DNA of 63,831 nt, the filler included, from Folioceros fuciformis (taxonomy: Eukaryota), in NCBI GenBank assembly GCA_049999805.1. It is 6 parts of 6 records of this genome, joined end to end, with 100 filler letters (N's around TTAATTAATTAA, not from the genome) between each part and the next. Parts side by side here need not be neighbours in the genome. Positions count along the whole stretch, not along the records: positions 56,525 to 63,831 come from JBNGIO010004143.1; 5 more parts are not named here. The stretch is one strand, 5' to 3'. The number at the start of each line of letters is the position of its first letter. Positions within the stretch are counted from its first letter, which is position 1. Below, in pieces: positions 12,737 through 63,831 of this stretch. The notes beneath the pieces were generated by a model. That model saw only the letters and a program-made list of their open reading frames with translations, made no database searches and was not told the DNA's origin. Position numbers and translations under genes: made by a program.

Positions 12737-14011
12737 CAAAAACAAGTGACGAAGAGGAGGACAGTTGGAAAGCAGCAACAGCGAGCGAGCTTAACGAGTC
12801 ACAAATGGGTCTGACTAACAGATTCAATTGCATCGATCGTAAGCTGATATCAGCACAACATCACGTTCAAAGGTCTGTGTCAGTGCAATCCACAAAATTT
12901 CAGAGGCGACCAAAACAACCACTTAGACCTTCTGTAGTTCATGGAGATGAGATCAGGCGTCCTGGTCAGGTCTATGGCATGCCAAAGAGAGACGCCTACT
13001 CTCTCTCTCTACGTGCATCTCTTTGGTGCATCCGCGAATGTTCATACATGGCGTGAAAACAGATTGGCTGTAAAAGATTGGCCGTCCTCCCCGTGCACAT
13101 ACGGCTGGAGCGTACCTTTCCCTGCACGTCTTCGTTCCAGTTGCAATGGCCGCGAGATCTGGTGGCCACCAGACCATGCAGCACAGCAGGTGGACTCACC
13201 CCACCTGTCTCTGGCTATTCCAACCATCACTCTCCCTCGACCGAGGGCTGGCCCCCACACCATGCAGCTCACCAGGTGGACTGACCCCACCCGTCTCCGA
13301 ATATGCTCGTAGATACCCTGGAGTGCACCCTGTCTGAGTCTCATAATTATACCATTCACTCTCCGAGCTACATGCATCGTCAATTTTCCTTGTTGCATAC
13401 ATACGCCACATCCTTGTCACAACGGCCTCGGCGTGCGCCGTGGGATTTCTGTGTCAAACACATCCGCTGAAACCAGGTCCTGAGTGGACATCTGTCCCAG
13501 AGCGACAGGCTCAGATGTCCACCATGGGCTATCGAGACACGATCGAATTACAGTTGCCCCACGTATTGCGGAAGACTTTTCAATCCACTCCAACTCATGC
13601 TCTCGCCCCTCTCATTCTGCACCACAAAGCCCATGACTCAGATATGCGGAGGTGTGCCCATCCCGTACGTGTTCCGCTCGCGAGAATTGACTGACCGTAA
13701 GCAACTGGTAAGGGCGCCAAGCGCGTGCTGCGAAATGGCCCTCCACGCTGCTCCTTGACCACCACGCTGTCGGCCTCGAAAGAATATGATCGGTTTGAAA
13801 CTCCAAGCTCCCGGGCGGAAGCTTCATATGACGCTGCAAGTCATGCCACGAACAAAGCACAGACTACAATTGCAGGTTGTGTTGTTCCACTATCAGATGA
13901 GTGTTCCAGCTGCCATCAAGCTCACCCCAGAACGCTCCCAGTCGGCAGCGCCCAACGAAAGGCCTCCTTCAATCCTCCATAGTTGTGCACGGTGCCGTAG
14001 CGGCAGGCAGC

Positions 14012-15308: not shown

Positions 15309-16583
15309 CAAAAACAAGTGACGAAGAGGAGGACAGTTGGAAAGCAGCAACAGCGAGCGAGCTTAACGAGTCACAAATGGGTCTGACTAACAGATTCAAT
15401 TGCATCGATCGTAAGCTGATATCAGCACAACATCACGTTCAAAGGTCTGTGTCAGTGCAATCCACAAAATTTCAGAGGCGACCAAAACAACCACTTAGAC
15501 CTTCTGTAGTTCATGGAGATGAGATCAGGCGTCCTGGTCAGGTCTATGGCATGCCAAAGAGAGACGCCTACTCTCTCTCTCTACGTGCATCTCTTTGGTG
15601 CATCCGCGAATGTTCATACATGGCGTGAAAACAGATTGGCTGTAAAAGATTGGCCGTCCTCCCCGTGCACATACGGCTGGAGCGTACCTTTCCCTGCACG
15701 TCTTCGTTCCAGTTGCAATGGCCGCGAGATCTGGTGGCCACCAGACCATGCAGCACAGCAGGTGGACTCACCCCACCTGTCTCTGGCTATTCCAACCATC
15801 ACTCTCCCTCGACCGAGGGCTGGCCCCCACACCATGCAGCTCACCAGGTGGACTGACCCCACCCGTCTCCGAATATGCTCGTAGATACCCTGGAGTGCAC
15901 CCTGTCTGAGTCTCATAATTATACCATTCACTCTCCGAGCTACATGCATCGTCAATTTTCCTTGTTGCATACATACGCCACATCCTTGTCACAACGGCCT
16001 CGGCGTGCGCCGTGGGATTTCTGTGTCAAACACATCCGCTGAAACCAGGTCCTGAGTGGACATCTGTCCCAGAGCGACAGGCTCAGATGTCCACCATGGG
16101 CTATCGAGACACGATCGAATTACAGTTGCCCCACGTATTGCGGAAGACTTTTCAATCCACTCCAACTCATGCTCTCGCCCCTCTCATTCTGCACCACAAA
16201 GCCCATGACTCAGATATGCGGAGGTGTGCCCATCCCGTACGTGTTCCGCTCGCGAGAATTGACTGACCGTAAGCAACTGGTAAGGGCGCCAAGCGCGTGC
16301 TGCGAAATGGCCCTCCACGCTGCTCCTTGACCACCACGCTGTCGGCCTCGAAAGAATATGATCGGTTTGAAACTCCAAGCTCCCGGGCGGAAGCTTCATA
16401 TGACGCTGCAAGTCATGCCACGAACAAAGCACAGACTACAATTGCAGGTTGTGTTGTTCCACTATCAGATGAGTGTTCCAGCTGCCATCAAGCTCACCCC
16501 AGAACGCTCCCAGTCGGCAGCGCCCAACGAAAGGCCTCCTTCAATCCTCCATAGTTGTGCACGGTGCCGTAGCGGCAGGCAGC

Positions 16584-17182
16584 ATGGCAGGTGTGCGAGG
16601 AGATGTGGCAGGAATTGTGTGGATGATGCTCCTCCTCCTGTGCAGTCCTCACCTCCGACTCAACGTGGCGGCCCAGACCTGCAGTGCAACCTCGCTGTGT
16701 GCCGACAACTTGTGCTGCAGCCAGTACAACTTCTGCGGCACCACATCCGACTACTGCGGCAACGGCTGCCTGAGCGGACCCTGCACGGGATCCGGCTCTC
16801 CGCCCGCGGGGTCGGGATCCGGCGTGGGGAGTATCATCACCCAGAGCGTGTTCAACCAATTCTTCCTCCACACTAGCGACTGTTCCACAAACAACTTCTA
16901 CACCTACAACGCCTTCATCACCGCAGCCTCCTCCTACAGCGAATTCGGCAACACTGGGGACGACACCACCAGGAGGCAAGAGCTGGCAGCTTTCTTCGCT
17001 CAAGTCTCGCATGAGACCACCGGTGAGCGAGATATCCTTGGCTCCCAGTCCGATGCGTCAAACGCTTCTTTTCTCCAAGTTTCTCCACTGCGCATGCATC
17101 AAAGTTCTTCCTTCAAGTCTGATCCCATGTCCATGCATCACACGATTGTTTCCTCCGACCTACTTGCTCACTGTGAACGTTG
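16584..17182 (+). CDS. Class I chitinase, 5' half (exon 1 plus partial intron) of a duplicate copy
   Basis: Appears identical to 14012-14610 at an offset of 2572 nt. Confidence 0.85.
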
Positions 17183-17282
17183 NNNNNNNNNNNNNNNNNN
17201 NNNNNNNNNNNNNNNNNNNNNNNNNNTTAATTAATTAANNNNNNNNNNNNNNNNNNNNNNNNNNNNNNNNNNNNNNNNNNNN
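17183..17282. other. Artificial scaffold spacer
   Basis: 44 N + ttaattaattaa + 44 N. Confidence 0.97.
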
Positions 17283-30192: not shown

Positions 30193-31314
30193 GCCCTGTC
30201 GTGACTCAGCCTGCAACGCCTCTGGTTGGCTTTCCAGACGAGACTGAATTACGAGGTGGTCGTGTCTGTATCGCAACAGCGCATACCCTAGAACGTCAGG
30301 CCATGTGCCATTACCTCGAGTGCGTACGTTGTGTGCTAATGGAATTGGATAGCCCAACTGCCCAACTCCTATTCCGACCTACTGGTTCAAAGCTCATTGG
30401 AGCCTCATCAGATGCTCTCGCAGAAAAAGCACGATGACGTATCGGTAAGTAGTTCAGGTTCAGTGAGCGGGCGCCACGTTTGTGAGGGAAAGATGCCGAC
30501 TCGAGAGTGCCGCAAGAGAGCGTGTCGAGCCAGGACTGGCTTCTCCGGGGAGTTCTGCCGACAGAACAGCAGATCCACTGAAGCGCCGTTTCCAGTTCAT
30601 CGAGGCTATTCGAGACCACCCTGTCGCCACAAGCAGGCACATCACTCCTGCTGTCGCCGCAAGCAGACAAGTCATTCCTGAAGCTTCTGTTGGAGGTTCA
30701 TGATTTATTGGAACTTCACCGTGCAGCCCGCCCTCGACCCGATCAATGTATGGTGTTGTACGTGGATTTGCGTGACGAAGTGGAACCTAAAAGTGTGCTC
30801 GAGATCGAGCTGCTTCTTGTCCTCCTCATGTTTCCGATCTCGAGGTGTTCTAAGCTGCCGTGAGCAAGCTGTACTGGGGTGCAAGTTTTGAGCGGAGTCC
30901 TCCGGTGGCTGGCAACAGGCGCCCCGGCGATTTGAACTGCGTTGCTTCCCATCCTGATCGCAAAGCTGCGAAGTGTACCACAGTGTTCGTGACATCGTTA
31001 CCGACACGACACAAAGCATTGCTTCTTGCATGCATCTGACATGTCCCCGCAGCAGTTGTGCTGTTGTGTAGTTGAGCATGGATCGCGGTGCAACGCGGGA
31101 TCTCCCTGCGGCCCTTCAGTGCGGTCGGAGATGTGTTGTCAGTGCTCTGTGAGTGGCAGCCGGCAGACTCTACTGTTGGAAAGGATAATTCTGATACGAT
31201 AGAGGTGTTGTACTTGTGATGGCTTCTTCCAGATGGACTGATCATGTAGCTGGCTGTGTTCTTTGATCCTTTGTTAAGAACCTTGACGGTTAAGCCTCGC
31301 CGGTGCCTGCTCTC

Positions 31315-31804
31315 ATGCATAGCTCCGGACCTGGATATGGTACTGGTAGCGGCATGCCAAGCCTGGTCCCAGGCCGCTCAGATGCGGCGGGACCTGGAGT
31401 GGTCCAGGGCACGACTCCAAGTCCGCCCTGGCCGATGACGCAGGAGCAGGTGGAGATGCTTCGGCGCCAGATTTTCGTCTTCAAAGTCATTTCTCGCAGG
31501 CTCGCGGACACGTTCCGCTCCACGCATCAATCGGATATCGATTGGACTCCTACGTCCGATCAGAACGAGATCTTGGAGCGGATATTCGGGCTTCAAGACG
31601 GTTTCACACGCACTCCTCAGAGAGTGAAGGAGATCTCGGCCGCCTTGTGCTCTAAGGGGCCGCATGTTCACAATGCTGAAGTTCTTCTCTGGCTTCAGGA
31701 GCGCCAATCGCGACAAGACAAGTTGGAAACATCAGGAAAGCAAAACTCAGAGGACAACGAGCGCAAACGGATGCGCGACGAGCATGCACAGTGCCATCAT
31801 CCAG
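31315..31804 (+). CDS. Divergent WOX13-like (T1 clade) homeobox protein, first exon; downstream exons to ~32620 uncertain
   Basis: MTQEQVEMLRRQIFVFKVISRRL (WOX13 upstream motif) followed by WTPTSDQNEILERIF..PQRVKEISAALCSKGP..VLLWLQERQSR (WOX homeodomain); donor ccag|gtcgg at 31804. Confidence 0.8.
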
Positions 31805-32089
31805 GTCGGTGTTTCAAAGCCTTCTTGGTCGTTTGCTATGCCCTTGTTTCATGTGAGGAGGTTGGCCCCTTCCCAGGCCGATCTTTGCGTAGTCCATCCA
31901 GCCTGGTATAATTTCGTGTTTCAGTATTCAATGTAGCTTAGGGTGTGCAGGACAATGCATATGCTTCGGGTTTGATGTAGCTGGGGGGCAATTTCCCGGC
32001 GCCAGATCCTGCAAGAAATGCAGCTGAACGATGTCAAGTCTCTGTATGCAGAAAACTGGGATTTCGGCGACAAGCGTCAAGCCATCCTA

Positions 32090-39506: not shown

Positions 39507-41106
39507 ATGGGATGCAGATCGAGGCTCGGGATTTGTTCCAGCGAGTTCTCCGGTTTGGAGGCCCACGACCCCCCAATCCAGATGCTACTGGGCAGAAGAG
39601 GAGTTGCCACAGCCGGGACCGGGTGGCTGAATTTGGTTGGTGGTGTCTCGGTTGCTGCTTGCTCCAAGCAGTCGATGCGCACAAGAGCGGCTGCCCCAGG
39701 CACTGTCGAGTACAAGGAGAAGGGGAGCCAGACGAGGGCGGCCAGGAAGGCTTCTAACATTCTGGAAAGGCTTGACCGAGCTCACGAAACAGAGAGGAGG
39801 GAGATCTTCCGGACCTCCACCCGCTTGTATCCAGCCACCCTTCTGTCGGCTCTGGAGGAAGCAGTCCGGAAGCAACAGTTGGAGTTGGCCCTCAAGGTTT
39901 GTTGCCTCTGTTTTCCTTCCTGGGCAGCAGCAGCAGCTGTAGAGGTGTGAGGTTGACTGCTGACGGATGCTGATGCTTTCGTGTTTGGAGCAGATCTTCG
40001 AGTTGGTGAGAAGGCAGGAATGGTACGAGTCGGAGGGTGCCACATTTGTGAGGTTGATGGGGATGTTGGGGAAGTGCAGGCGTCCGGACCTTGCTCCAGT
40101 GCTGCTACAGAAGATGGTTGAGGACAAGTGCCCTCCCAGCGTGGAGGTGTACACGGCCCTGGTATCGGTGTACACCAGGTGCGATCTGCTGGACAAGGCG
40201 TTGGTGGTGTACGAGGACATGAAGAATGAGGCAGGGTGCGAGCCGGACGTGTGGACTTACAGTCTCCTCATCGGGGCATGCTGCGAGTCGTCCATGTTCG
40301 ACAGGGCTCAGGAGCTTCTCGGCGAGATGGAGCAGTATGGGCTCCAGCCCAACACTGTGACGTACAACACCCTCATCAACCAGTACGGGAAGCTGGGAAT
40401 GTTTTCGCACATGGAGCAAGTGTTCGAGGACATGGAGAGGAAGGGCCAGTGCCCACCTGACATATGGACGTGGAACTCCATCCTCAAGTCGTATGGCATC
40501 AAGGGAAGGACGGACAAGATGGAGTCCTGGTTCAACAAGCTCTGCAGCTCGGGGATGGAACCCGACGTCGTCACCTTCAACACCCTCATCAAGGCGTACG
40601 GACGACATGGGCTGTATGGCAAAATGCAGGCTGTGGTTGCCTACATGCACAAGTTCATGTACCCCGTGGATGTGGTGACCTACAACCTGGTGATCGATGC
40701 TTACGGCAAGGCCGGCAGGCTGGAGCAGATGGAGGAGGTTTTCAAGCGAATGAAGCTTCGGGGAGTGAAGCCCAATCAGGTGACGTACTGCACCCTGATC
40801 AGCGTGTACGGGAAGCTGCCCGAGGGTGTGGAGATGGTGGAGAGGGTGTTGAGGCAGATCAGAAATTCGGATGTCACACCGGATGTCGCCCTCTACAACT
40901 CTCTCATCGACGCATACCAGAGATTCGGAGACCTGGTGGCTATGGAGGACATTTTTAAGGAGATGAAGAGAAGCCGGTGCTGGCCTGACTCCATCACCTA
41001 CCAAATCATGATCGCTGCCTACCGAAGGAAAATGCGACACGACATCGCAGATGAATTGCAAGCCGAGATGGAAACGCACAACAAGAGAGCGTCTCAATTC
41101 TTGTAG
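39507..41106 (+). CDS. P-class pentatricopeptide repeat protein (At3g53170-like), probably organelle-targeted, one intron at ~39897-39993
   Basis: About 10 tandem 35-aa P repeats (PDVWTYSLLI, PNTVTYNTLI, PDVVTFNTLI and so on) preceded by LLSALEEAV..ALK|IFELVRRQEWY. Confidence 0.93.
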
Positions 41107-42097
41107 AGACCCCGATTTGCTCACATGGCTCCACAGAAGAAGCCCTCAACCTCTTCTGGGCCCTTGTGGCCCAAATTGCCTCCTGCTGCTCCTCCTCCTC
41201 CCAGATGTCCTCTTCGTTGGTATGTTTTTCTAATGCTCCTCTGCCAGGATATGCTGCTTTCTCAGTGTGGTCTTGTGAATTAGTCGTTTTCCAGTAATCT
41301 GAGGAAGCTCTGGAAACGGAGAGCCCTCATCCTGTGGAAGGCGGGTGCGTGCTAGAAGCATCCAGAATCAAGGCTCTGCAGAGCACACATTGGACGGCTT
41401 ATCCACGGAAAGGAAGATGGTGGAAAGGGCGACGTGACTGAACCACTTTGATTCCATAAAGTTGGTGCAGACTCACCGTGTTTCCTGTTCGAACATGACC
41501 ATTTAGTTGTCTGTCCCGTGATGTAACGCAGGGACGGACGGAGATCGAATCCCTCTGTCGCCGGTTGGTCAAATTGATTAAAGGTCACGTATTTTATTCA
41601 AGGGACCAAGAAAAGGGATGATCGAAGAAGGACATCAAACCTAGGGGGGACTAAAACCCACGTGGGCCAGGAATAGCGGTAAAGGTCTTTGCAAGAGCCA
41701 GAGCAAGAGCCGTGTCCAGTTTGCATGTAACAGTATGTATATTTCTCTCCAACGAGAAAAGTGGCATAATGTAATCGGGTCATGGCTACAAGGGAAAGGG
41801 AGAGCCTGAAAGGAACGGGCAAGCCATGTACAGTGCAGTACAGTACATGTATTTGGGAAAAGAAAAGAAATGGTTTCCATTAGGTGTGGCTGCTGGAGAA
41901 GTAATCACTTCCGTACATGCAAATGGTTGTGCCCAAAGGGGTAGACTGGGAAAAATACCATTTGTGCATGGGCCTAGGACGGTGGTGCGTGCGGCTTAGT
42001 AGAGCCTGTGGAGTTGAATTTGGTGCGCAGAGTTGTGTGGAATTCATGGTCAAGCATCGCACTCCCAGCCAAGGTTTGATGCAGCCACCAGCGGCTC

Positions 42098-42629
42098 ATG
42101 GGGACGCTCTCGCAATGGACTATGAAGCGCATCTGCAAGTTCTTCATGAAGCGCCTGCTTGGCACGGTGCTGCGAGCCGAGCTCGACTTGGAGCAGCTCG
42201 AAGTTCAGCTTGGCTCAGGGAGGATTCAACTCCGGGATTTGGCTCTCAATACGGACTACATCAACGAGCAGGTGCCACCGCTGCGGCCCTTGTGTGTTCA
42301 TGTCTGCCCTGTGCTGCAGCGCCTGTCCTGGCCTGCCCTGCTTGCTGCCTCCTGCCCTGCTTGCTGCTGCTGCCATGCTGACATGTTAGGGTTCGGGATT
42401 GCCGCGCAGCTGGGAAATTCAGCGGTCATACTCAGTGACGGATCCGTGGGCAGCGTCAGTGCCAAAATTCCATGGAATCCGCTGGGAGCGGAGGCGGTGG
42501 AGATCGAGGTGGATGAATTGGAGCTGGTTTTCATTCCCAGGCCGTGCGCGCAAACCGACACGGATGCATCTGGATTCGTTGGGAATGACGGCAGGGATGG
42601 GGATGGGACGCGGCAGCAGCACGCACCTG
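42098..42629 (+). CDS. ATG2: Autophagy-related protein 2, N-terminal chorein region, truncated by the scaffold end
   Basis: WTMKRICKFFMKRLLG..LDLEQLEVQLGSGRIQLRDLALNTDYINEQ|LG..DGSVGSVSAKIPW..IEVDELELV. Confidence 0.88.
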
Positions 42630-42729
42630 NNNNNNNNNNNNNNNNNNNNNNNNNNNNNNNNNNNNNNNNNNNNTTAATTAATTAANNNNNNNNNNNNNNN
42701 NNNNNNNNNNNNNNNNNNNNNNNNNNNNN
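42630..42729. other. Artificial scaffold spacer
   Basis: 44 N + ttaattaattaa + 44 N. Confidence 0.97.
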
Positions 42730-52895: not shown

Positions 52896-55800
52896 TTAGA
52901 CTTGGTTCACATGCACCTGAACCCACTTTATTGTGTTGTTGTTTAGGCGAAGATGCGACATATATCCTAGTTTGTTCCTTTTCGATAATACCTGATTCGG
53001 CCTTCCTCGACTTTCGAGGATTGTCTCATCCCCAGCCAGGAAACTGTGCACTGTTCCTTCCTTGTCCGTCCACCAACTCTGACCTGGCTGCTTCCATGGC
53101 CTCATGCTTTTTCTCCTCGTCTGAAATTCCCATGCCCGCTCCCACATCTGGGCACTGGTGTATATGTTCGACATCAATACATATGCTACAGGATCTTTCT
53201 TATCTATTTTCACAGCTTCAGTGAAAGCCTCGTGTCCCACCTCCACATTGCTCCACTTCCGACAAGCACCCAACAGGGCGCACCAAACTGCAGCATTTGG
53301 CGATACAGGCATTGACCTTACCAAACCTAGAGCCTCATCTAGTTGTCCAGCTCGGCCCAGTAAGTCCACCATGCATGTGTAGTGGTCCTGGGTGGGACTG
53401 ATGCCGAACTGTCTGCTCATGGCATCGAAGTACTCCCACCCTTGCTTCACTAGGCCCGCGTGACTACACACAGTCAGTACACTGAGGAAAGTAATGCCGT
53501 CTGGCTGTACGCCATCCTCTCTCATTCTTTCGAACAAGCCAAATACTACTTCGCTCTCTCCCTGGTACGAGTAGCCTGCTATCAGTGCACTCCAGGCGAT
53601 GACGGTTCTTTCAGGCATAGCATCGAACACCTGTTGTGCAGCAACCATGCTCCCCGACTTGCTGTACATGTTAATCAAACTGCCTGCTAGAAACAAATCG
53701 GCTTGGAGTCCTTGTTCCACAATCTGCAAATGTAGCTGCTTTCCCAGGTACAGAGCTGCCACATTTGCACATGCTTGCAGGAGGCACACGAATGTAACTG
53801 AATCGGGTGAAGCCATCCCTTCTTCTACCATCGTTCTGTAGAGACGAAGGGCTTCCTGCCCCATGCCCTGCTTAGAATACCCTGCTATCATGGCATTCCA
53901 CGTCACAACATCTTTGCAACTGAGTTGATCAAACAGTCTCTGAGCGTGTTCCAAGCTGCCGCACTTGACATACATGCTCACCAAACTGTTGGAGACAACC
54001 CCATCAGCTTCATGCCCCTGTTCTCTAATCTGCATATGAAGCCGCTTCCCCAACTCCAGCGCTGCAATACCCACACTGGCACATGCCTGCAGGAGGCACA
54101 CAAACGTTACCGGATCGGGTGCAGCCATGCCATCTTCGTGCATAGCCCTGTAGAGACAAAGTGCTTCCTGCCCCATGCCCTGCTGGGAATACCCTGCTAT
54201 CATAGCTGTCCAGGTCACCACATCTTTGCGACAGAGTCCATCAAACACTCGCTGCGCATCTTCCAAATTGCCACACTTTGCATACATGTTCATTAAACTG
54301 CTAGCTACAAAAGCATCAGCCTCATGGCCCTGCTCTCTAATCTGCATATGGAGCTGCTTCCCTGTGGCCAATGCCAGGGAGCCAACACTTGCACACGCCT
54401 GCAAGAGGCAAACAAATGTGACGCAATTGGGAACAGCCTTTCCATCCTGTCGCATCGCACTGTAGAGGCGAAGGGCCTTCTGCCCCATGCCTTTCTGCGC
54501 ATATCCTGCTATCATGGCGGTCCATGTCACCTCGTTCTTTTGACCAAGTCCGTCAAACACTCTCTGAGCTTCATCCAGGCTGCCGCACTTTGCATACATG
54601 TTCACCAAACTGCTGGCTACAAACACATCAGCTTCATGTCCTCGATCTCTGATCTCGTTGTGCAGCTGTTTCCCCTGTTCTAATGCTAGGGCGCCGACAC
54701 TTGCACATGCCTGCAGGAGGCAGACAAATGTAAAGCAATTGGGTACAGCCATCCCTTCTTCCTGCATCGCAATGTAGAGCTGGAGGGCTTCTTGCGCCAT
54801 TCCATGCTGGGAATACCCTGCTATCAAGGACGTCCAAGTTACCACATTTTTGTCACCAAGACGGTCAAATACACCCTGAGCATTCTCCAAGCTGCCACAC
54901 TTTGCATACATATCCACCAAGCAAGAACCAACGAACAAATCAAGCTCGACGCCACAGGCCAACGCATCCGCATGCACCTGCTGCCCAGTTTGCATGTCTG
55001 ATCCCCGTGCGCAAGCCTGAAGGGCTGCCACAAACACATGGCCATCTGGCTTCACTCTGGACCTTCTCATCCGGTGATACAGTTGTATGGCCTGCCTGTC
55101 TTGTCCGTGTTTAACATGCGCAGAGATGATGGCCGACCACGTGAACGCATCTGGTTGGGCCACCGTTTCAAACACATCCATGGCGTCTCGCAACCTGCCA
55201 TGAGAAGCATACATACGCAGGATATGGTTGCACAGGACCGTGTCTGACTGGTACCCCTTGTGTACACTCAAAGCGTGAATGCGGCTACCCAGGGCAAGAT
55301 CCCTCTTCACTGCACACTGCCTCAGGACAGTACACAAGAGAGACTTGGACACACAGCGCTCTGTCTGCACCAGCCACTCCAAGGCTTCAACAGCCTCAAT
55401 CAGACAACCCTGGTGGCACAGCTTGCTCACGGTCTCAGCAGTGACGCCCCCACCGTAGCCCCGGCGACGAGTACGATCATCCGGCGAGTTCCTGTCGGAG
55501 GCACCAGGACATATTCCCATTTCCATTTCCACACCCAGAGCGGGAAGCTGTACAAAGACCCGAGCTGGCTGGTAGAAATTGTTTAACCAGAGGACCTCCC
55601 GGGCCTGCCTGCACTCGAAGTCAGGCGACACGAGGCTCTTTCTTCTGTGCCTGCCATCCCAGCAGAATGCAAGGTGCCGAAACAGTTGTCGACACCGTTT
55701 CTCGCAACCACGACCATCGCTAGAAGATGCAATTCGACCAGCTGGATTTGTTGCAGCAGAGCAACACCTCCCGAACTGGTTGTGCGCCAATGGAACACCC

Positions 55801-55901
55801 GTTAGCCCGCCATTTTCCTGAGTCCAAAAAATGCATCCGGACAAGGTGTTGTTCCGTGACTCAACCGCAAGGCTCCAACCAGCCATGCCTCGCAGGAGCA
55901 C
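52896..55901 (-). CDS. PLS-class PPR RNA-editing factor with E domains and PG box; DYW deaminase truncated; intronless
   Basis: Repeated P-L-S triplets, HYTCMVDLLGRAG..VWCALLGAC (E1), AYVLMSNIY (E2), KQPGQSWWTD..VHSFLAGD. No HxE, CxxC or DYW follows. The start is uncertain. Confidence 0.93.
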   Translation of the reverse strand: MLLRGMAGWSLAVESRNNTLSGCIFWTQENGGLTGVPLAHNQFGRCCSAATNPAGRIASSSDGRGCEKRCRQLFRHLAFCWDGRHRRKSLVSPDFECRQAREVLWLNNFYQPARVFVQLPALGVEMEMGICPGASDRNSPDDRTRRRGYGGGVTAETVSKLCHQGCLIEAVEALEWLVQTERCVSKSLLCTVLRQCAVKRDLALGSRIHALSVHKGYQSDTVLCNHILRMYASHGRLRDAMDVFETVAQPDAFTWSAIISAHVKHGQDRQAIQLYHRMRRSRVKPDGHVFVAALQACARGSDMQTGQQVHADALACGVELDLFVGSCLVDMYAKCGSLENAQGVFDRLGDKNVVTWTSLIAGYSQHGMAQEALQLYIAMQEEGMAVPNCFTFVCLLQACASVGALALEQGKQLHNEIRDRGHEADVFVASSLVNMYAKCGSLDEAQRVFDGLGQKNEVTWTAMIAGYAQKGMGQKALRLYSAMRQDGKAVPNCVTFVCLLQACASVGSLALATGKQLHMQIREQGHEADAFVASSLMNMYAKCGNLEDAQRVFDGLCRKDVVTWTAMIAGYSQQGMGQEALCLYRAMHEDGMAAPDPVTFVCLLQACASVGIAALELGKRLHMQIREQGHEADGVVSNSLVSMYVKCGSLEHAQRLFDQLSCKDVVTWNAMIAGYSKQGMGQEALRLYRTMVEEGMASPDSVTFVCLLQACANVAALYLGKQLHLQIVEQGLQADLFLAGSLINMYSKSGSMVAAQQVFDAMPERTVIAWSALIAGYSYQGESEVVFGLFERMREDGVQPDGITFLSVLTVCSHAGLVKQGWEYFDAMSRQFGISPTQDHYTCMVDLLGRAGQLDEALGLVRSMPVSPNAAVWCALLGACRKWSNVEVGHEAFTEAVKIDKKDPVAYVLMSNIYTSAQMWERAWEFQTRRKSMRPWKQPGQSWWTDKEGTVHSFLAGDETILESRGRPNQVLSKRNKLGYMSHLRLNNNTIKWVQVHVNQV

Positions 55902-56424
55902 GCCCGCAGCCTATCCATGTCGCCGCATCAAACCGGATGCGCTCTATGTACCTGAGTTAGCGCGCAGTGCACGATCGATCATTCGAAACAGATGAACAAA
56001 CGGAGCAAAAGACAACTCGGATGCCGTTTGCGCCTGCTTGTCCTCCAGTTGGGCTAGCCAAAAACTGTTCTACCTATATACGTAAATAGTTTCAATATAA
56101 AAGTTTAACCAAATTTGTTCCTCGAATCTAAAACCATCTACAAATAATTTATATAATTTGAATATTTATTTAAAATGTTAAATAGAATAACTTATTCACA
56201 TTATCAATAAACATAGTTCAAATTCCTTGAAAAAATACATACAATAAAACTTATTTTCAGAGTTTGATATAAAATAAACTTGATATTTTAGATAAATTAT
56301 TATATATATTCATATATAGAGGAATAAAAGGTGATTATTTGTTTTATTTTATTTTTATTTTTATTTTTATTTAAATTATTGTACAGTGATTTATATAATT
56401 ATTGTGTATATTTAAGTCCCATGA

Positions 56425-56524
56425 NNNNNNNNNNNNNNNNNNNNNNNNNNNNNNNNNNNNNNNNNNNNTTAATTAATTAANNNNNNNNNNNNNNNNNNNN
56501 NNNNNNNNNNNNNNNNNNNNNNNN
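56425..56524. other. Artificial scaffold spacer
   Basis: 44 N + ttaattaattaa + 44 N. Confidence 0.97.
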
Positions 56525-56982
56525 GTCCAGCCCCAGCCTAGGCCTAGCCTTGGACCGCAAACCAACTCAGCATCGCCTTGGCCCTTGACCTTAGGCCACA
56601 GGCCAGCTCGACATTGCCCTAGCTTGAGCCCCTGACCTAGAGCTATAGATAGCTTAGCAGCATCTTGGCCCACAGCCAGCAGCCGAAGCTGTGCAATTTG
56701 TACATATTCTTACACAAAGAAGTACTAGCCAAATATGTTGGTTTGGAGGATGCCTTATTGATCGAGACACATTTCTACTCTAGTTTTCAAAAAAATAATT
56801 GCTTGGCAAGTTTGTGAATGATCCTCAAAGACCCATGTAGAATCTCCATAAAGTAAAGTCTTTTAGTTTATAAATGACGGTGATAGAACTATGTTTTTAT
56901 AAAGATACGTTAGAGCAAGTTTATTTAAAGTGGAGTGTTTCTAGAAAGAGGAGCCTATTTATCCTCCTTAGAGGAGCTTATT

Positions 56983-57073
56983 GGATAGACTCATGCTATG
57001 TTGCCTGACCTTGTTCGATAGACTCATGCTATGTTGCCTAACCTTATTTGATAGACTAATGCTATGTTGCCTG
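56983..57073. repeat. 33-bp tandem repeat, 3 copies
   Basis: gatagactcatgctatgttgcct.. Confidence 0.8.
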
Positions 57074-57344
57074 CTTTTGAGTGACATCAAGTGTTGTCAT
57101 AGTGGCAAAGCTTGCCTTAGGAAGCTTTATGCTAACTTGAGAGCTTCGTTTGGTGGGAGACCTAACATAACTTTTTGTAGCAAGCACGCCATTGGTTATT
57201 TGCTTCAATCCTTGTTGCAAGGTTGGTGTCCTTAACGTGGATTCTATAAGATAGCAGTGAAAGTCCCCATTGTGCCATGTTCAAGTATCTACCTTTCACA
57301 TATTATCCAATCCAAGGTATCACAATAGGTGTTTGCACCCTAGT

Positions 57345-57682
57345 AGGCCCTACCTACATCACATTCAATTTGAAGAAGTAAGCCTTGCCTACATCACATT
57401 CAATTCGCAAAAGTAGGCCTTGTCAGAAGTAGGGCTTGCCTACATCACATTCAATTTGCAGAAGTAGGACTTGCCTACATCACGTTCAATTTGTAGAAGT
57501 AGGGCTTGCCTACATCACATTCAATTTGTAGAAGTAGGGCCTGCCTATATCACATTCAATTCGCAGAAGCCCTTGCCTTCATCATATTCACTTAAAGAAG
57601 CCCTCGCCTACATCACATTCACTTGAAGAAGCCCTCGCCTACATTACCTTCGCTACAGAAGCCTTGCCTAGATCACATTCTT
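57345..57682. repeat. ~35-bp minisatellite, about 9-10 degenerate copies
   Basis: gaagtagggcttgcctacatcacattcaatttg. Confidence 0.85.
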
Positions 57683-59118
57683 CAATAAGTGACCATCATA
57701 AAAGACTAACACCCTTTAGATCTTAAGCAATACTTACAATAGATTGCAAAATATTATTTATTAGATTAGATTAGATATCCTATAGTCACAGATTCTATAG
57801 CGAAACTTGTCACATCATCCAAGATATATATATATTCCAGTCATACATACATGTCATATCATCCAAGATATATATATATTCTAGTCATACATACATTTGT
57901 GTTGTAATCTGACTATAAGGCTCGACGTGGTTGTATATTTGCAGGACANNNNNNNNNNTAAGGCTCGACGTGGTTGTATATTTGCAGGACAAACTACCAC
58001 AATGCGAAGGAAGTTCGACAGAGTTTTGAAGATATGCGATGCCTGTTACAATAGTGACGCTGCAGTGTTGCCGTAAGCCACAACTTGAAATCCTTGCTAG
58101 TGAGTTGCCCATCTTGGGATGACTTGTCCATCAATGTGCAACTGCATTCTACGAGTGCCAGATCTTTTGTATGAGATGCGTGTGCTGGCCATCAGGAATT
58201 CCTCGTCTACCCCGTCACATAACCTACCAAAGGCAATCCCAGGAGTGAGTGTGAGGTTGAGCATTGCAGCAGGAATGGATTGGAGTTTTTCGCGTGGTGA
58301 AGTGCATCTGTATCTGTGCCCATGGTTAACTGCGGACCTCTGCCCGCTTGGGAGTTGGAGCTGGTCTGCAAACACGCTCCCGGAGTAATGCATGATAGCT
58401 GAAGAGGTATGCAGTGTCAGGGTCACGTTCTCATCGGCTGGACCTGTAAACACCGTGGTGCATCAATGTGACTATTAGTGCTGCATGATATAAAAAATAT
58501 CCGATATATCAGCAGTTGCGTGCAACAGCATCATACCTCCATGGTTCCAAACTTCCAGTTGAGCAAGGCCGTGGCTTGTCTACAAAAATGAGTAGCGGCT
58601 GAATATGACTGGACTCGACCTGCACCTTCTGTTTGCTCATTAGAGCAACTACCCTCCTCCGCATAGATCACTCTCTCACCATCGTCCACAGCTTTACATG
58701 TGCATCTGCAGGCAACCACTGTTGCAGTTTTGAGGTTCCGAGCTCCCAGAGTCAGGGGCTTACTGCATGTCTGGAAAATCATATCGCATTTTCTGAGGAG
58801 GGAAGGAAACCTGATTTGTTGCTTGGCGCTGCTGCTCTGTCCATATACCACCTGGTCACGCCAGGCAGCAACATTGCCACCCGCGCGCACTTCAAGCCAC
58901 ACCAGGTGCGATCGTCAAAATCATCGTCGAGGACTCGGTGAAGAGCTTGCAAGCCCACCTGTGAGCGTAATTGTCCAAACCCTATTTCTCGCGGGTTACA
59001 CCAACTTAAGCCCCACTTTCCGGGTGGACGCTTCCCAAGCGTAGTGGCGCAAAACACGGTAGTCCGCAACGGTCGAGTCCAGTCAAATCCAGCTGCCCAG
59101 ATCCGGGTGGTGCTGAGG

Positions 59119-60561
59119 ATGGCACCAGCCGATAGGCCAAGGAGCCTTCAGTGCCAGTATGGATGCCAAAGGCTTTTCCGTTGCCAGGAAGATATGGAGG
59201 ATCATCGACGGATAAGTCACGCTACACCACGTAAGCAAGTTGATTGCCCTGAGCTGCTCCTGGAAATGTTATCTGTAGCTGGAGATGCCTGATTCTGGTT
59301 TGAAACCTCGAGTGGAAGCGAGCAGTATTGAATGTCGGAAACCGTGACGATGTCGCTCACAAGACCTAATGTGAGAACGAGAAGGGACGTGGTAGGCGGG
59401 GAGTAGGAGAGATGAAAGCAATCCCTTGATCAGTAGCAGTGCTGAGCTGACGGTTATCGTGAACGCTACAGACGCAAGGGGAAGGGCTGCTGTCGCAGTG
59501 CTGCTGAGTCTAGCTCGTGCGCAGCAGGATGCTCGTCCTCAACAGGTTGCTCGTCCTCAGCAGGTTGCTCCTCCACGGCACGTTGCTGGGGTCAGATCCG
59601 TTAAGTCGGTCGGTTGCAACGACTGTGGAAGACGGTTTGCCGACCATGGGGCGTTGCAGCAGCACCAGCTTGCTGCACCTCCTGGTTCGCACACGCTGCT
59701 CGGGAGAGCACCGCACTCCCGATGCTGTCAGAAGTGTCCCCGCGAGGATTTTGCCACAATTGAGGCCCTCGAACAGCACCATGCTACATGCCACGCAGGT
59801 ACGGGGCCGGTTCTGTTTTCTCGTGCCAACGGGACTTCAGTCAAATAGTATGCAGCATTCCATTTCCAGTTAACAATCCGTCATCTCTCCACTCCTTCGT
59901 CGCAGTGGAAGAGTTTTCGCAAGGAAACTCAGAACGTCGAGAGATAGAAGCTTACTTTCACAGGAAATGGCTGCACAACGGTCTACGGAGGCCCGTCATT
60001 CTCTCCGTCCTCAAAATCTACAACCTCGCGAGACGGATAGACAAATTCGAGACGTACCGGGTGGAGGTGAAGGTTAGAGCTAATGAACGTCCCGGCCCAC
60101 AGGACGACAAATCTTTAAAGGACGGGAACGAGGTGCGACGATTTCACGGAACTGCTGTATACTGCAACATTGGCAGTATGTCCAACACTCGAGTCTGCAG
60201 CGAGGCGCGGTGCAGTCTCTGCAACATTATCCGAAACGGATTCCTGTTGAAGAAGGTGAGGAGAGACGCATTCCAGAGATTCGGACCTGGAATCTATACA
60301 ACTGCTACAAGCAGCAAAGCTCATGCGTACGTGAGAGCGGAGTATGGATTGGGGCCAACTAGGAAGGCCTTGATTGTCTGCAAAGTGATCGCGGGAAGGG
60401 TGTTCAAAGTGCAAAACAACATGGAACACCTGGCAGGGCCCCCGCCCGGCTTCGATTCCGTGATTGGAGAACCAGGGAAGGATCTCAAATACGACGAGCT
60501 CGTTGTGTATGACTCGAGAGCTATCTCACCTCGATGTATCGTGATATACGAGTGCCGTTGA
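59119..60561 (+). CDS. C2H2 zinc-finger protein with a C-terminal PARP-like ADP-ribosyltransferase domain, 3 exons (59119-59230, ~59471/59514-59798, 59906-60561)
   Basis: ZF CQYGC..HRRISH, CNDC..HQ, CQKC..HHATCH. ART motifs DGNEVRRFHGT, CSLCNIIRNGF, RFGPGIY, SKAHAY, ALIVCKVIAG, GFDSV, YDELVVY, P..IVIY. The phase-1 GT-AG introns join in frame. Confidence 0.85.
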
Positions 60562-61029
60562 GGCTACTGGCAATGTGGGATCCAGAGTGAGATTGTTTAC
60601 ATTCATGCTCGATTGTCCAAAGGTCCATATTTTTACATTCATGCTCATTGTCCAAAGGTCCATGTTCTTTGTCGTCAAGGCGTCCCTCCTCTTGGACCCA
60701 CATACAGTCCGCCCTCTATAAATGTTATAAATGTTAGACCGCCCTGTGTAAATGTGACCTCCCTAAATGTTATACCTCTATAAATGCTAGAAGTTGTGAC
60801 CTCCCTAAATGTTATACCTCTATAAATGCTAGAAGTTTGGATACTCCCTAGTTGGGAAGTAAGGTTAAATATTATTTTTCTATAAATATTATATATTATT
60901 TATTGTAGGAAAATAAGTATTCTTAATCATTACAGTCTAATTTTATAAATATTATTTTTATTTTATATAATATACATTATACTTAAAATAGTATGAATAA
61001 TATTAATATCTAATTTATCCAATGACGAT

Positions 61030-61392
61030 GCGAGACTTGGATGGACCCAAAGCAAGAGAAGGCCAATCACAATGTAGGATTTGGATGGGCCCAAAGCAAG
61101 AGAAGGCCAATCACAAAGGACTTGGATGGGTCCAAAGCAAGAGAAGGCCAATCACAAAGGACTTGGATGGGCCCAAAGCAAAAGAAGGCCAATCACAAAG
61201 GACTTGGATGGGCCCAAAGCAAGAGAAGGCCAATCACAAAGGACTTGGATGGGCCCAAAGCAAGAGAAGGCCAATCACAAAGGACTTGGATGGACCCAAA
61301 GCAAGAGAAGGCCAATCACAAAAGACTTGGATGGGCCCAAAGCAAGAGAAAGCCAATCACAAAGGACTTGGATGGGCCCAAAGCAAGAGAAG
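61030..61392. repeat. 41-bp minisatellite, about 9 copies
   Basis: ggacttggatgggcccaaagcaagagaaggccaatcacaaa. Confidence 0.93.
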
Positions 61393-61885
61393 GAGGAGGG
61401 AGCAAGGAGGCCTAAGCAAAGGTGGAAGGAGAGAGCAAGAGGGAGCAAGGAGCAAGAGGGAGCAAGGGAGCTAGGAGCAAGAGGGAGCAAGGGAGCTAGG
61501 AGCAAGAGGGAGCAAGGGAGTCAAGAGCAAGAGGAAGCAAGGAGGCCCAAGCAAAGGTGGAAGGAGAGAGCAAGAAGGAACAAGGAGCAAGGAGGAGCTA
61601 GGGAGCAAGGAGCAAGAGGAAGCAAGAGGGAGCAAGGAGCAAGAGGAAGCAAGAGGGAGCAAGGAGCAAGAGGAAGCAAGAGGGAGCAAGGAGCGAGAGG
61701 AAGCAAGAGAGAGTAAGGAGCAAGAAGGAGCAAGAAGGAGCAAGGAGCAAGGAGCAAGAAGGAGCAAGGAGCAAGAAGGAGCAAGGAGCAAGAAGGAGCA
61801 AGGAGCAAGAGAGAGCAAGAAGCAAGAGGGTACAAGGCACAAGAGAGAGAAGGAGAAGGCAAGAGAAGGAGGACCAAGAGAGAAG
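61393..61885. repeat. Purine-rich low-complexity repeat (gagcaag variants)
   Basis: Nearly T-free tract of gagcaag/ggagcaaga units. Confidence 0.9.
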
Positions 61886-62340: not shown

Positions 62341-62464
62341 TTAAATTGTATGTTTGCAACTTTTGCTTTTCTTAAGGTGAATTCAATATACCGAGAGAAC
62401 CAAGTAGTAAGAAGAAATTATCTTTGACGATGGGGGCAAAAGAAAGAAATAATATTATACAAAG

Positions 62465-63831
62465 ATGCTCATAGTGGAGCTACTAATCGAGAGGTTAGTG
62501 CTTGGGCTTCTTTATCAATTCAGCATGCTAGTTTCTGCTATGACCATAGGTCGAATTTTCAAGAAAGGAAATGAGTTTCGAAACGTCAAGGATCATGAAG
62601 CTAACTCTAAACGAAATAAGGATACATTTCATCCCAAGGTTGAGGAGGCTTTGTTTTCATGGTTTGTGATGATGGAAGGAAATATCGCTATCTCTGACGA
62701 TATGTTGTGTGAAATGGGAAAACAGTTCTTTGATAGGTTACCAGAAGCAGAAAGGTTGGAAAAACCACTAACATTTTCTCATGGTTGGATAGCAAAGTTT
62801 AAACATCGACATGACATCAAAGGTTTTGTGAAGCATGGAGAAGCTGTAAGTGCTGATATATCGCAGATGTTCCAAGATAGAATGGAAGACATTAAAAGTA
62901 TCATGCGAGGATACGAGCCTCAGGATATTTTTAACATGGATGAAACAGGGTTGTTCTACAGATTGGAACCGAACAAAACATTGGCAACGAAGAGGCTAAG
63001 CGGGAAGAAAACTCCAAAGGAAAGGCTAACTGTTGCTTTGACAACCAATATGGATGGTAGTTATAAATTACCACCCTTTGTGATCAACAAATTCTTGAGG
63101 CCTAGAGCTTTTACTAGTCGCAACATTGAACGAGTGAAGAATTTGGGTATTCATTGGTTAGCAGACTCAAATGCTTGGATGTCGGTGGCTTTATTTGAGC
63201 AATTTATTCTCTTTTTTGATGCGAACATGAGAGTTAGGGGCCGTACTAATGTCTTGCTTCTTTTGGATAATGCTTTTGGATAATGCTCCTGTTCATAAAC
63301 TATCAGCTGAGACACAAAGTAAGCTTCAAATTACAAGGGTTGAATTTTTTCTTCCTAATGTTACGGCATGTTACCAACCCATGGATGCAGGCATTATACA
63401 ATCTTTTAAGGCCAATTACAGGAAAAGGCTTGTTCAACATAAAATCTAAGAGATTCAAAATGGTAATTCTCCTCTTATTTGATGTATATCATGCTGTGAC
63501 TATGTTGGAAAAAGCTTGGCGTATCGATGTTAAAGAGAAAATCATTAGAAATTGTTGGAAACACTCTGGGTTATGGCAAGAGAGAGCAAGTGCTAGCGTG
63601 TTGGATATAGACTTGAATCAACTTAGTTTTGAGACATGAAATGCTAACAGTGATGATGAGCAACAACAAGACAACCAAGCAACACGTGAAGATAGAGATT
63701 ACGCAGAAATAGAAATGCTTCTTTGTCAGTTGAGGGATTTAGAACTTGGCACAACAGGATTGACCCCTACTATGCCTACAGAAGAATTTGTTGATTATGA
63801 GGTGACAAATGCATGTGCTATCTTTTCTACT
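62465..63831 (+). pseudogene. Tigger/pogo transposase (CENP-B HTH + DDE_1) disrupted by frameshifts and stops
   Basis: HPKVEEALFSWF..ISDDMLCE..FSHGWIAKFKHRH; IFNMDETGLFY; KERLTVAL; NAWM; LLLLDNA; QPMDAGII; IIRNCWKHSG. A 13-bp duplication (tttggataatgct) breaks the frame at ~63263-63288. Confidence 0.92.

What the first reader, a model, noticed from the sequence alone, without database searches (positions are those of the whole stretch)
59119..60561. Zinc-finger ADP-ribosyltransferase with a complete H-Y-E triad: candidate uncharacterised plant ADP-ribosylation enzyme
Seen: three spliced exons fuse two clear C2H2 fingers and one degenerate finger to a domain with FHGT, FGPGIY..SSKAHAY and YDELVVY, plus a Cys cluster (C..CSEARCSLC) that could bind zinc. 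Established: H-Y-E is the catalytic signature of ARTD/PARP enzymes; canonical plant PARP1-3 have PARP-zf/BRCT/WGR/regulatory domains and SROs have WWE/RST, none of which is here. Inference, from memory: the frame (HHxxxHAV.E..GxS.R..E..W..LK..N..FE.YR..VK..DGNE..RFHGT..KALIVCxVIAGRV) matches the angiosperm 'C2H2-like' family (At5g54630/At4g27240 type), whose active-site region looks degenerate, while RFGxGIYT..SSKA..Y and PPxGxDSV..YDELVVY resemble fungal stand-alone PARP-like proteins. This copy may be the catalytically active ancestral form of an overlooked plant ART family, or an HGT-linked one, with nucleic-acid-sensing fingers and possibly a defence or stress role.
Basis: partly seen in the sequence, partly recalled or inferred. 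Interest (0 to 1): 0.8.

Follow-up and report, generated by a model that had tools for sequence, protein, structure and literature searches.

The report
Zinc-finger PARP-like enzyme gene, land plant
This is a real-looking three-exon plant gene that joins zinc fingers to a tankyrase-like ADP-ribosyltransferase domain with all catalytic residues intact. It belongs to an old plant family whose flowering-plant members are studied only as zinc-finger transcription regulators and have lost those residues.

Summary
Window 59119-60561 (+) reads as three exons with GT-AG introns and encodes 364 aa: three C2H2-type fingers, then a 217-aa domain.

- **Domain identity:** it passes Pfam's PARP cut-off. Its model (pLDDT 86.9) matches tankyrase catalytic domains at TM 0.75.
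- **Catalytic residues:** H80-G81, Y130, K137, Y141 and E197 align with tankyrase's H, Y and E.
- **Zinc site:** a four-Cys block is a family-specific insertion.
- **Not unique:** Marchantia MpC2H2-23, a Mesotaenium protein and many fungal and protist proteins share the intact signature.
- **Phylogeny:** a careful ML tree puts the window inside a supported streptophyte clade (97/88), outside a long-stemmed vascular-plant clade (100/100).
- **Decay in vascular plants:** the full H-G-Y-Y-E signature is kept in 10 of 10 non-vascular rows and 0 of 23 vascular rows. H-Y-E survives in 3 of 23.
- **HGT:** not supported for this gene.
- **Literature:** the papers read on vascular-plant relatives (SlPZF1, OsTIF1, ZmMRPI) never mention PARP.

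Activity, targets, nucleic-acid sensing and a defence role are untested, and no RNA evidence was available. The gene is a new member of a database-annotated but biochemically uncharacterised family.

The parts
59119..59230 (+). Exon 1: start codon and finger F1 (residues 12-34, window 59152-59220, C-x3-C-x12-H-x4-H).
   Evidence: This is the first ATG of the open frame, and the donor is GTAAGC at 59231. Marchantia MpC2H2-23 residues 31-59 match 59137-59223 by tblastn, 52% identity, E 5e-5, colinear with the exon 2 and exon 3 matches.
59231..59471 (+). Intron 1 (241 nt, GT..AG).
   Evidence: An alternative in-frame acceptor (AG at 59410-11) would add 20 residues. The two cannot be told apart without RNA.
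59472..59798 (+). Exon 2: a low-complexity Q/P/A stretch, the atypical finger F2 (59615-59692, C-x2-C-x12-H-x8-H) and finger F3 (59726-59794, C-x2-C-x13-H-x4-H), which abuts the catalytic domain.
   Evidence: Translation is and the Pfam zf-C2H2 match to F2 (E 8.4e-5, below cut-off). There is no in-frame ATG in this exon, read from the sequence, so it needs exon 1. The alignment is colinear with Marchantia, Mesotaenium and seed-plant proteins across the HA|V|E junction.
59799..59905 (+). Intron 2 (107 nt, GT..AG, pyrimidine-rich 3' end).
   Evidence: The split codon G|TG gives the Val of the conserved H-A-V-x-E motif.
59906..60561 (+). Exon 3: the complete PARP-like (ARTD) catalytic domain and the stop codon.
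   Evidence: Pfam PF00644 at 32.1 bits against a cut-off of 26.7. AlphaFold2 model pLDDT 86.9, pTM 0.86. Foldseek best hits are tankyrase-1 and -2, E about 1e-14, TM 0.75. The family profile aligns with tankyrase-1 over the whole domain, E 2.2e-12.
60145..60150 (+). H80-G81 of RFHGT.
   Evidence: The family H column aligns with LFHGS of tankyrase-1 and lies in model strand 75-83. It is kept in 10 of 10 non-vascular streptophyte-side rows.
60163..60222 (+). Four-Cys block (C86, C97, C102, C105), a putative structural zinc site.
   Evidence: It is an insertion relative to tankyrase, between HGS and the IIxxGF helix. All four Cys are present in 39 of the 45 rows tabulated: 10 of 10 non-vascular, 17 of 23 vascular and 12 of 12 fungal/protist-side rows. 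Zinc binding is inferred, not tested.
60295..60330 (+). Y130 ... K137 ... Y141 (GIYTTATSSKAHAY), the nicotinamide-pocket segment.
   Evidence: It aligns with GIYFAENSSKSNQY of tankyrase-1.
60496..60498 (+). E197 of YDELVVY.
   Evidence: It aligns with the E of tankyrase YAEYVIY and starts model strand 197-200.

Best explanation
Window 59119-60561 (+) is a three-exon gene of a land plant. It encodes a protein of about 364 aa: three C2H2-type zinc fingers, then a tankyrase-like ADP-ribosyltransferase (ARTD/PARP) domain with no regulatory helical domain.

The domain keeps the whole NAD+-pocket and catalytic signature (H-G, Y, K, Y, E). It also carries a family-specific four-Cys insertion that probably binds a structural zinc.

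The most likely mechanism is as follows. The fingers place the protein on nucleic acid or on a partner protein in the nucleus. The ART domain then transfers ADP-ribose from NAD+ to itself, to bound proteins or to nucleic-acid ends. Whether it makes mono- or poly-ADP-ribose is open.

The gene belongs to an old streptophyte lineage that includes Marchantia MpC2H2-23 and a Mesotaenium protein. The vascular-plant 'C2-li' zinc-finger co-regulators (ZmMRPI, SlPZF1 and OsTIF1 type) descend from this lineage and have lost part or all of the signature.

Shown here: gene structure, fold, residue correspondence, phylogeny and the pattern of residue loss. Inferred: catalysis, zinc binding, nuclear action and targets.
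For: - **Gene model:** one open frame over three exons with canonical splice sites. Three colinear tblastn matches to Marchantia MpC2H2-23 cover all three exons.
- **Domain:** PF00644 scores above its cut-off. The model has pLDDT 86.9 and matches tankyrase catalytic domains at E about 1e-14, TM 0.75, rmsd 2.9.
- **Residues:** the profile alignment puts the family's H, Y..SK..Y and E on tankyrase's LFHGS, GIY..SSKSNQY and YAEY (single-sequence alignment).
- **Conservation:** H-G-Y-Y-E is kept in 10 of 10 non-vascular streptophyte-side rows and in 11 of 12 fungal/protist-side rows. H-Y-E is kept in 12 of those 12. In the wider table, 127 of 164 rows read H-Y-E.
- **Phylogeny:** the streptophyte clade of 33 rows has support 97/88. 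Window plus P0035 has 100/94. The vascular clade has 100/100 on a stem of 0.97 changes per column.
- **Relatives' biology, from passages read:** ZmMRPI proteins are nuclear and bind a MYB-related factor through the C-terminal conserved domain (PMC3936200). OsTIF1 occupies the OsTAA1 promoter by ChIP-qPCR (PMC7647119).
Against: - No biochemical data exist for any member that I could find.
- There is no RNA evidence for expression or for the joins.
- The position aligned with the last Ser of tankyrase SSKS is Ala. From recall, that Ser contacts nicotinamide in PARP1 and tankyrase.
- H-Y-E does not by itself predict poly-ADP-ribosylation, nor activity at all.
- Vascular-plant relatives function without the signature, so the fold can serve as a binding module.
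- None of the three fingers reaches Pfam's cut-off.
- I could not measure distances between H, Y and E in the model, because coordinates are not returned.
- Seven of the ten 'non-vascular' rows are unlabelled contigs, placed there only by the tree.
Confidence: 0.6

Rival explanations
1. The protein is a non-catalytic scaffold or reader. The PARP-like fold serves as a protein-interaction module, or as an NAD+/ADP-ribose-binding module, in transcriptional co-regulation, as it does in its vascular-plant relatives and in SRO/RCD1.
For: Seed-plant relatives act as co-regulators with a degenerate site. The full signature is present in 0 of 23 vascular rows. In the passages read, ZmMRPI binds MYB-related factors through the C-terminal conserved domain. 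The Ser-equivalent position is Ala.
Against: All five signature residues are strictly kept in 10 of 10 non-vascular rows and 11 of 12 fungal/protist-side rows over deep divergence, at about 40% identity. That is hard to explain without selection on the NAD+ site. The long stem of the vascular clade (0.97) suggests a change of constraint only there.
Confidence: 0.25
2. The locus is an unexpressed or decaying copy, or the three-exon model is wrong. For example, the fingers may not be spliced to the catalytic exon, or another start or acceptor may be used.
For: No RNA holder was listed and no contig was laid. The gene is flanked by repeats and a pogo-like transposase ORF. An alternative in-frame acceptor exists at 59410-11.
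Against: The frame is intact over 1095 nt with canonical sites. All family-invariant residues are kept. Exon 2 has no in-frame ATG, so it needs exon 1. A single Marchantia protein matches all three exons colinearly. The H-A-V-x-E motif is rebuilt exactly across intron 2.
Confidence: 0.1
3. The gene was acquired recently from a fungus by horizontal transfer.
For: Identity to basidiomycete proteins (37-42%) is about the same as to seed-plant proteins, and fungal members share the intact signature.
Against: The window groups with Mesotaenium, Marchantia and vascular plants at 97/88 support, and the named fungi lie on the other side. It shares the finger-abutting architecture and two further fingers with Marchantia. 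Fungal relatives have other N-termini. It has introns and plant gene neighbours.
Confidence: 0.03

Closest known systems
Tankyrase-1/2 catalytic domain (PARP5a/b)
   Same: It is the best sequence and fold match in the PDB: phmmer E 1.8e-6, profile E 2.2e-12 over the whole domain, and Foldseek E about 1e-14 at TM 0.75. The H, Y..SK..Y and E positions correspond. Neither has a helical regulatory domain in front of the ART fold.
   Different: Identity is only 20-23%. Pfam finds no ankyrin repeats and no SAM domain here. Tankyrase's own Cys/His-rich stretch after the second Tyr is a gap here. Instead a four-Cys block is inserted after H-G. The fingers are C2H2-type.
Marchantia polymorpha MpC2H2-23 (and the M. 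paleacea protein in the same 90% cluster)
   Same: It has several C2H2 fingers followed by the same ART domain, with the last finger abutting it. H-G-Y-K-Y-E and the four Cys are intact. Identity is 45% (41% by tblastn) over the domain, and all three exons match colinearly.
   Different: Marchantia has a further N-terminal finger with no counterpart found in the window and a C-terminal tail. On the tree it is not the window's nearest relative, which is the unlabelled P0035 at 62% identity. I found no paper that names it.
Vascular-plant 'C2-li' C2H2 proteins (ZmMRPI-1/2, SlPZF1, OsTIF1/2, At1g75710-like)
   Same: They are homologous over the last finger and the whole C-terminal domain, at E 1e-33 to 1e-22 and 36-42% identity. 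They share the H-A-V-x-E...W...K-V-x-N...F-E-x-Y-R frame and, in the finger-bearing forms, the four Cys.
   Different: They form a separate clade with 100/100 support on a long stem. They usually have a single finger. The signature is decayed: H-G becomes H-C or Y-C in eudicots, the first Tyr becomes F, L, C or S, and the second Tyr is lost in 23 of 23 rows. They are studied as transcription co-regulators, with no mention of PARP in the papers read.
SRO/RCD1 (plant PARP-like Clade 2)
   Same: These are plant proteins in which a PARP-like fold with an altered triad serves transcription-factor binding. This is an analogy for the vascular-plant branch of the present family, taken from abstracts listed.
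   Different: SROs carry WWE and RST domains, which were not found here. The window's protein keeps H-Y-E.
Animal zinc-finger PARPs (PARP12, PARP13/ZAP, PARP7)
   Same: The general layout is the same, with nucleic-acid-binding zinc fingers N-terminal to a PARP-type domain. This comes from recall and from abstracts listed.
   Different: Those fingers are CCCH and come with WWE domains. Their catalytic Glu is replaced (H-Y-I and similar). The fusions arose independently.

Membership tests
PARP catalytic domain superfamily (Pfam PF00644, ARTD fold) | Score above Pfam's curated cut-off | tested here: met
   32.1 bits against a cut-off of 26.7, E 1.1e-7.
PARP catalytic domain superfamily (Pfam PF00644, ARTD fold) | ART fold comparable to solved PARP domains | tested here: met
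   The model has pLDDT 86.9 and pTM 0.86. Its top hits are tankyrase catalytic domains at E about 1e-14, TM 0.75, and 383 PDB chains match at E<=0.001.
PARP catalytic domain superfamily (Pfam PF00644, ARTD fold) | H-Y-E residues at the positions of the catalytic triad | tested here: met
   They align with tankyrase LFHGS, GIY and YAEY. Spatial convergence in the model was not measured.
PARP catalytic domain superfamily (Pfam PF00644, ARTD fold) | NAD+-dependent ADP-ribosyl transfer | not testable with these tools
   This needs a biochemical assay.
Canonical plant PARP1/2/3 (Clade 1) | WGR and helical regulatory (PRD) domains, with PARP-type zinc fingers, BRCT or SAP | tested here: not met
   No such Pfam family was reported at E<=1 in any of the three exons.
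SRO/RCD1 (Clade 2) | RST domain, with or without WWE | tested here: not met
   Not reported by Pfam at E<=1. The protein ends 20 residues after E197.
Tankyrases (Clade 4) | Ankyrin repeat clusters and a SAM domain N-terminal to the catalytic domain | tested here: not met
   Not reported by Pfam. The N-terminus holds C2H2-type fingers instead.
Streptophyte zinc-finger ART lineage (MpC2H2-23 type) | C2H2 finger abutting the ART domain (H-x4-H-A/P-V), four-Cys insertion and intact H-G-Y-K-Y-E | tested here: met
   Alignment, residue table, colinear tblastn matches and a tree clade at 97/88.
Vascular-plant C2-li C2H2 family (At1g75710 / SlPZF1 / ZmMRPI type) | Homology over the finger and the conserved C-terminal domain | tested here: met
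   E 1e-33 to 1e-22 to conifer, monocot and eudicot members. One relative of P0016 is named 'like AT1G75710'.
Vascular-plant C2-li C2H2 family (At1g75710 / SlPZF1 / ZmMRPI type) | Placement inside the vascular-plant clade | tested here: not met
   The window lies outside the clade of 23 vascular rows, which has 100/100 support.

The most novel reading that the evidence does not exclude
Plants have a further class of ADP-ribosyltransferase besides PARP1-3 and the SROs. It is an ancient tankyrase-like enzyme guided by C2H2 fingers and stabilised by its own four-Cys zinc site. It is still catalytically active in bryophyte-grade plants and streptophyte algae, including this gene and Marchantia MpC2H2-23. 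In this reading, the vascular-plant 'C2-li zinc-finger transcription factors' (MRPI, PZF1 and TIF1 type) are its pseudoenzyme descendants. Their MYB-binding 'C-terminal domain' would then be a disabled ART fold.
Probability: 0.35. Interest if true: 0.7.

Novelty: new member of a known kind. Interest (0 to 1): 0.5.

Why it matters
Surveys of plant ADP-ribosylation count PARP1-3 and the SRO proteins. Citarelli 2010, in the passages I read, adds Clade 6 in moss only and holds no occurrence of 'C2H2'.

This gene and its relatives would add a separate lineage with an intact H-Y-E site in early-diverging plants. The idea can be tested directly in Marchantia.

It would also reinterpret a family of crop-relevant regulators as derived from an enzyme fold. 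These include regulators of maize transfer cells, tomato fruit size and rice grain filling. That reading suggests new experiments on how their C-terminal domain binds partners, and on whether any member still binds NAD+ or ADP-ribose.

If the enzyme proves inactive, the finding reduces to a routine domain annotation.

Tried and rejected
- **RNA evidence:** no RNA holder was listed for 59000-60700. The one run offered by species label (X1, kind guessed) gave no contig on the stretch. Expression and joins therefore stay untested.
- **Whole genome:** none is held for this window.
- **Earlier findings of the scan:** nothing by place or by sequence.
- **HGT reading:** rejected on the tree.
- **Upstream exon:** I looked for a counterpart of Marchantia's first finger and found none in the window. 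The only extra match is a weak paralogous hit to the exon-2 fingers.
- **Second copy:** no second PARP-like copy lies in the window.
- **Overlapping ORFs:** ORFs on the minus strand over and upstream of the gene (58100-59147, 60118-60525) have no Pfam family above cut-off.
- **Exon 2 acceptor:** the alternative at 59412 cannot be excluded.
- **Papers not seen:** Englbrecht 2004 is not held. Royo 2009 and the Aravind 2015 ART review were not read. The search for the review's title listed only papers that cite it. No supplementary files were consulted.
- **Fusarium 'PARP-C':** the fungal PARP preprint describes a short 'PARP-C' with H-Y-E in Fusarium. I could not tell whether it belongs to this family.
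- **Model geometry:** coordinates of the model are not returned, so H-Y-E distances and the geometry of the four Cys were not measured.
Full report
**Observation**

The stretch 59119-60561 on the + strand reads as three exons: 59119-59230, 59472-59798 and 59906-60561. The donors are GT at 59231 and 59799 and the acceptors AG at 59470-71 and 59904-05. Joined in a script, the exons give 1095 nt with a single terminal stop, that is 364 residues.

The ATG at 59119 is the first in its open frame, and exon 2 holds no in-frame ATG, as read. An alternative in-frame acceptor (exon start at 59412) would add 20 residues and cannot be excluded.

**Domain content**

Exon 3 (P0001, 217 aa) matches Pfam PF00644, the PARP catalytic domain. 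It scores 32.1 bits against a curated cut-off of 26.7. No WGR, regulatory, BRCT, WWE, RST, ankyrin or SAM family was reported for any exon at E<=1.

- **F1** (residues 12-34) has canonical spacing but Pfam E 0.14.
- **F2** scores 23.3 bits against a cut-off of 25.2, and its last His is displaced (H-x8-H).
- **F3** has a 13-residue spacer and was not reported by Pfam.

All three are nevertheless conserved in position and ligands in relatives. The displaced-His form of F2 recurs in the Marchantia, Mesotaenium and P0101 proteins.

**Fold and active site**

An AlphaFold2 model of exon 3, built on a 92-row alignment, has mean pLDDT 86.9 and pTM 0.86. Foldseek against the PDB returns tankyrase-1 and -2 catalytic domains first, at E about 1e-14, TM 0.75, rmsd 2.9 and 20-23% identity.

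By sequence, tankyrase-1 is also the best solved relative. The single sequence gives E 1.8e-6. The family profile gives E 2.2e-12, aligned over the entire domain. In these alignments:
- RFHGT lies on LFHGS.
- GIYTTATSSKAHAY lies on GIYFAENSSKSNQY.
- YDELVVY lies on YAEYVIY.

H80, Y130 and E197 fall in strands 75-83, 129-132 and 197-200 of the model. I could not measure distances, because coordinates are not returned.

There are two differences from tankyrase. First, the Cys/His-rich stretch after the second Tyr of tankyrase is absent. Instead a block with four Cys (C86, C97, C102, C105) is inserted between H-G and the IIxxGF helix. Second, the residue aligned with the last Ser of SSKS is Ala. 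From recall, that Ser contacts nicotinamide in PARP1 and tankyrase. Among H-Y-E relatives this column varies, mostly between A and S.

**Organism and context**

Other ORFs of the window match the following families:
- PLATZ
- two PPR proteins, one of 1004 aa with an E motif
- two class I chitinases with chitin-binding domains
- a QLQ domain
- an ATG2-like N-terminus

I did not determine the species.

The gene is followed by tandem repeats and by a pogo-like transposase ORF. Minus-strand ORFs over and beside it match no family above cut-off.

**Relatives**

The closest protein is an unlabelled contig product, P0035, at 62% identity and E 3.7e-81. All others are at 48% identity or less.

An exhaustive search of 1.84 billion representatives found 1535 proteins at E<=0.001, 807 at E<=1e-10 and 66 at E<=1e-30. 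The named ones among the best hits are listed below.

| Group | Relatives |
|---|---|
| Non-vascular streptophytes | Mesotaenium; Marchantia paleacea and M. polymorpha (MpC2H2-23) |
| Ferns and lycophytes | Psilotum, Diphasiastrum, Selaginella |
| Basidiomycetes | Fomitopsis, Serendipita, Tulasnella |
| Amoebozoa | Nematostelium |
| Conifers, ferns, monocots, eudicots | Variously named 'C2H2-type domain-containing', 'ADP-ribosylation-containing protein' and 'nucleic acid binding protein' |
| Angiosperms, shorter form | About 290 aa, no finger, no four-Cys block |

Around the Vigna member, relatives include one named 'like AT1G75710', two named 'C2H2-like zinc finger protein' and one named 'PolyADP-ribose polymerase'. 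The link to At5g54630 is indirect. The SlPZF1 paper states 61% identity of SlPZF1 to At5g54630. It places both with the maize MRP-1 interactors and with Selaginella homologues in the 'C2-li' set (PMC10515234, section 6 read whole).

**Gene model supported by homology**

Marchantia MpC2H2-23 matches the window in three colinear pieces:
- residues 31-59 on exon 1 (52% identity, E 5e-5)
- residues 72-142 on exon 2
- residues 142-347 on exon 3

The conserved H-A-V-x-E motif is rebuilt exactly across intron 2. Marchantia's first finger has no counterpart in the window.

**Phylogeny**

I built a careful ML tree of 45 rows with 379 columns kept, under LG+C20+F+G4, unrooted. It unites the window with Mesotaenium, Marchantia and all vascular plants in a clade of 33 rows, with support 97/88. 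The named fungi, the amoebozoan and a marine protist lie on the other side.

Window plus P0035 form a pair (100/94). The 23 vascular-plant rows form a clade (100/100) on a stem of 0.97 changes per column.

Several limits apply:
- Three long-branched rows (P0026, Fomitopsis P0100, P0029) are flagged as unsure.
- The tree includes some N-terminal columns.
- The order among the non-vascular groups is only moderately supported (88-90).

Recent transfer from fungi is not supported for this gene.

**Residue states**

The table gives states on the 45 tree rows.

| Group | Rows | H-G-Y-Y-E | H-Y-E | Four Cys |
|---|---|---|---|---|
| Non-vascular streptophyte-side | 10 | 10 | 10 | 10 |
| Fungal/protist-side | 12 | 11 | 12 | 12 |
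| Vascular plants | 23 | 0 | 3 | 17 |

- The three vascular rows that keep H-Y-E are Cryptomeria and two unlabelled rows.
- Glu is kept in 18 of the 23 vascular rows.
- In the wider table, 127 of 164 rows read H-Y-E.
- Only Marchantia, Mesotaenium and the window are identified among the ten non-vascular rows. The other seven are unlabelled contigs placed there by the tree.

**Literature**

Searches for the four Arabidopsis gene codes, for C2H2 with PARP terms and for Marchantia with PARP, C2H2 and ADP-ribosyl (0 papers) found no paper that links this family to ADP-ribosylation.

In the passages read:
- The SlPZF1 paper and the OsTIF1 paper hold no occurrence of 'PARP' or 'ADP-ribos'.
- A review describes the conserved C-terminal part of ZmMRPI as a DNA-binding domain and as the MYB-interaction domain (PMC3936200).
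- Citarelli 2010 holds no 'C2H2'. It gives land plants Clade 1 and Clade 2, plus Clade 6 in moss (PMC2964712).
- A 2026 preprint on fungal PARPs holds no 'C2H2' and mentions a short 'PARP-C' that I could not place.

Subscription papers (Royo 2009), Englbrecht 2004 (not held), the Aravind review and all supplements were not seen, so a prior mention cannot be excluded. Database names such as 'PARP catalytic domain-containing protein' and 'ADP-ribosylation' show that automatic annotation already sees the fold.

**Interpretation**

The best-supported reading is a real gene for a zinc-finger-guided, tankyrase-like ADP-ribosyltransferase of an old streptophyte lineage, probably active. The vascular-plant C2-li co-regulators are its derived, partly or wholly disabled relatives.

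The strict retention of five pocket residues across very deep divergence favours catalysis. So does their collapse on a single long branch. Nothing here shows catalysis, its product, its targets or a role in defence.

The main rival is a non-catalytic scaffold. A wrong or silent gene model and fungal HGT are less likely.

**Verdict**

The gene is a new member of a family that databases annotate but nobody appears to have characterised as an enzyme. Interest is moderate. It would be high for plant ADP-ribosylation biology if activity is shown, and routine if not.

Noticed in passing
window 61034-61393 and 61429-61855: Directly downstream of the gene lie a 41-bp tandem array (8.7 copies, 94% matches) and then a purine-rich array with periods of 10, 17 and 27 bp. 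These arrays create long spurious ORFs on both strands.
   Followed up: partly
window 62453-63283 (+): An ORF with HTH_Tnp_Tc5 and DDE_1 domains, a pogo/Tigger-like transposase, runs towards the window's end.
   Followed up: no
window 13901-14806 and 16473-17234 (+): Two neighbouring ORFs each carry a chitin-binding domain and the start of a GH19 class I chitinase, with near-identical match coordinates. This looks like a tandem duplicate.
   Followed up: no
window 52896-55910 (-) and 39964-41106 (+): There are two PPR genes. The first is an uninterrupted 1004-aa frame with a C-terminal E motif, the type associated with organellar RNA editing in land plants.
   Followed up: no
window 115-1572 (+), 31294-31911 (+), 42080-42685 (+): ORFs with a PLATZ domain, a QLQ domain (GRF-type) and an ATG2/VPS13-like N-terminal region.
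   Followed up: no
window about 57900-57960: Translations across this stretch contain runs of X, so the sequence holds N there. It lies in an AT-rich block (GC 0.345 for 56001-58000) upstream of the gene.
   Followed up: no
relatives P0053, P0058, P0072, P0081 and similar (angiosperms, about 290 aa): A second angiosperm family of the same fold lacks the finger and the four-Cys block. It forms its own long-stemmed group (100/100) inside the vascular clade. Some members are named 'PARP catalytic domain-containing'.
   Followed up: partly
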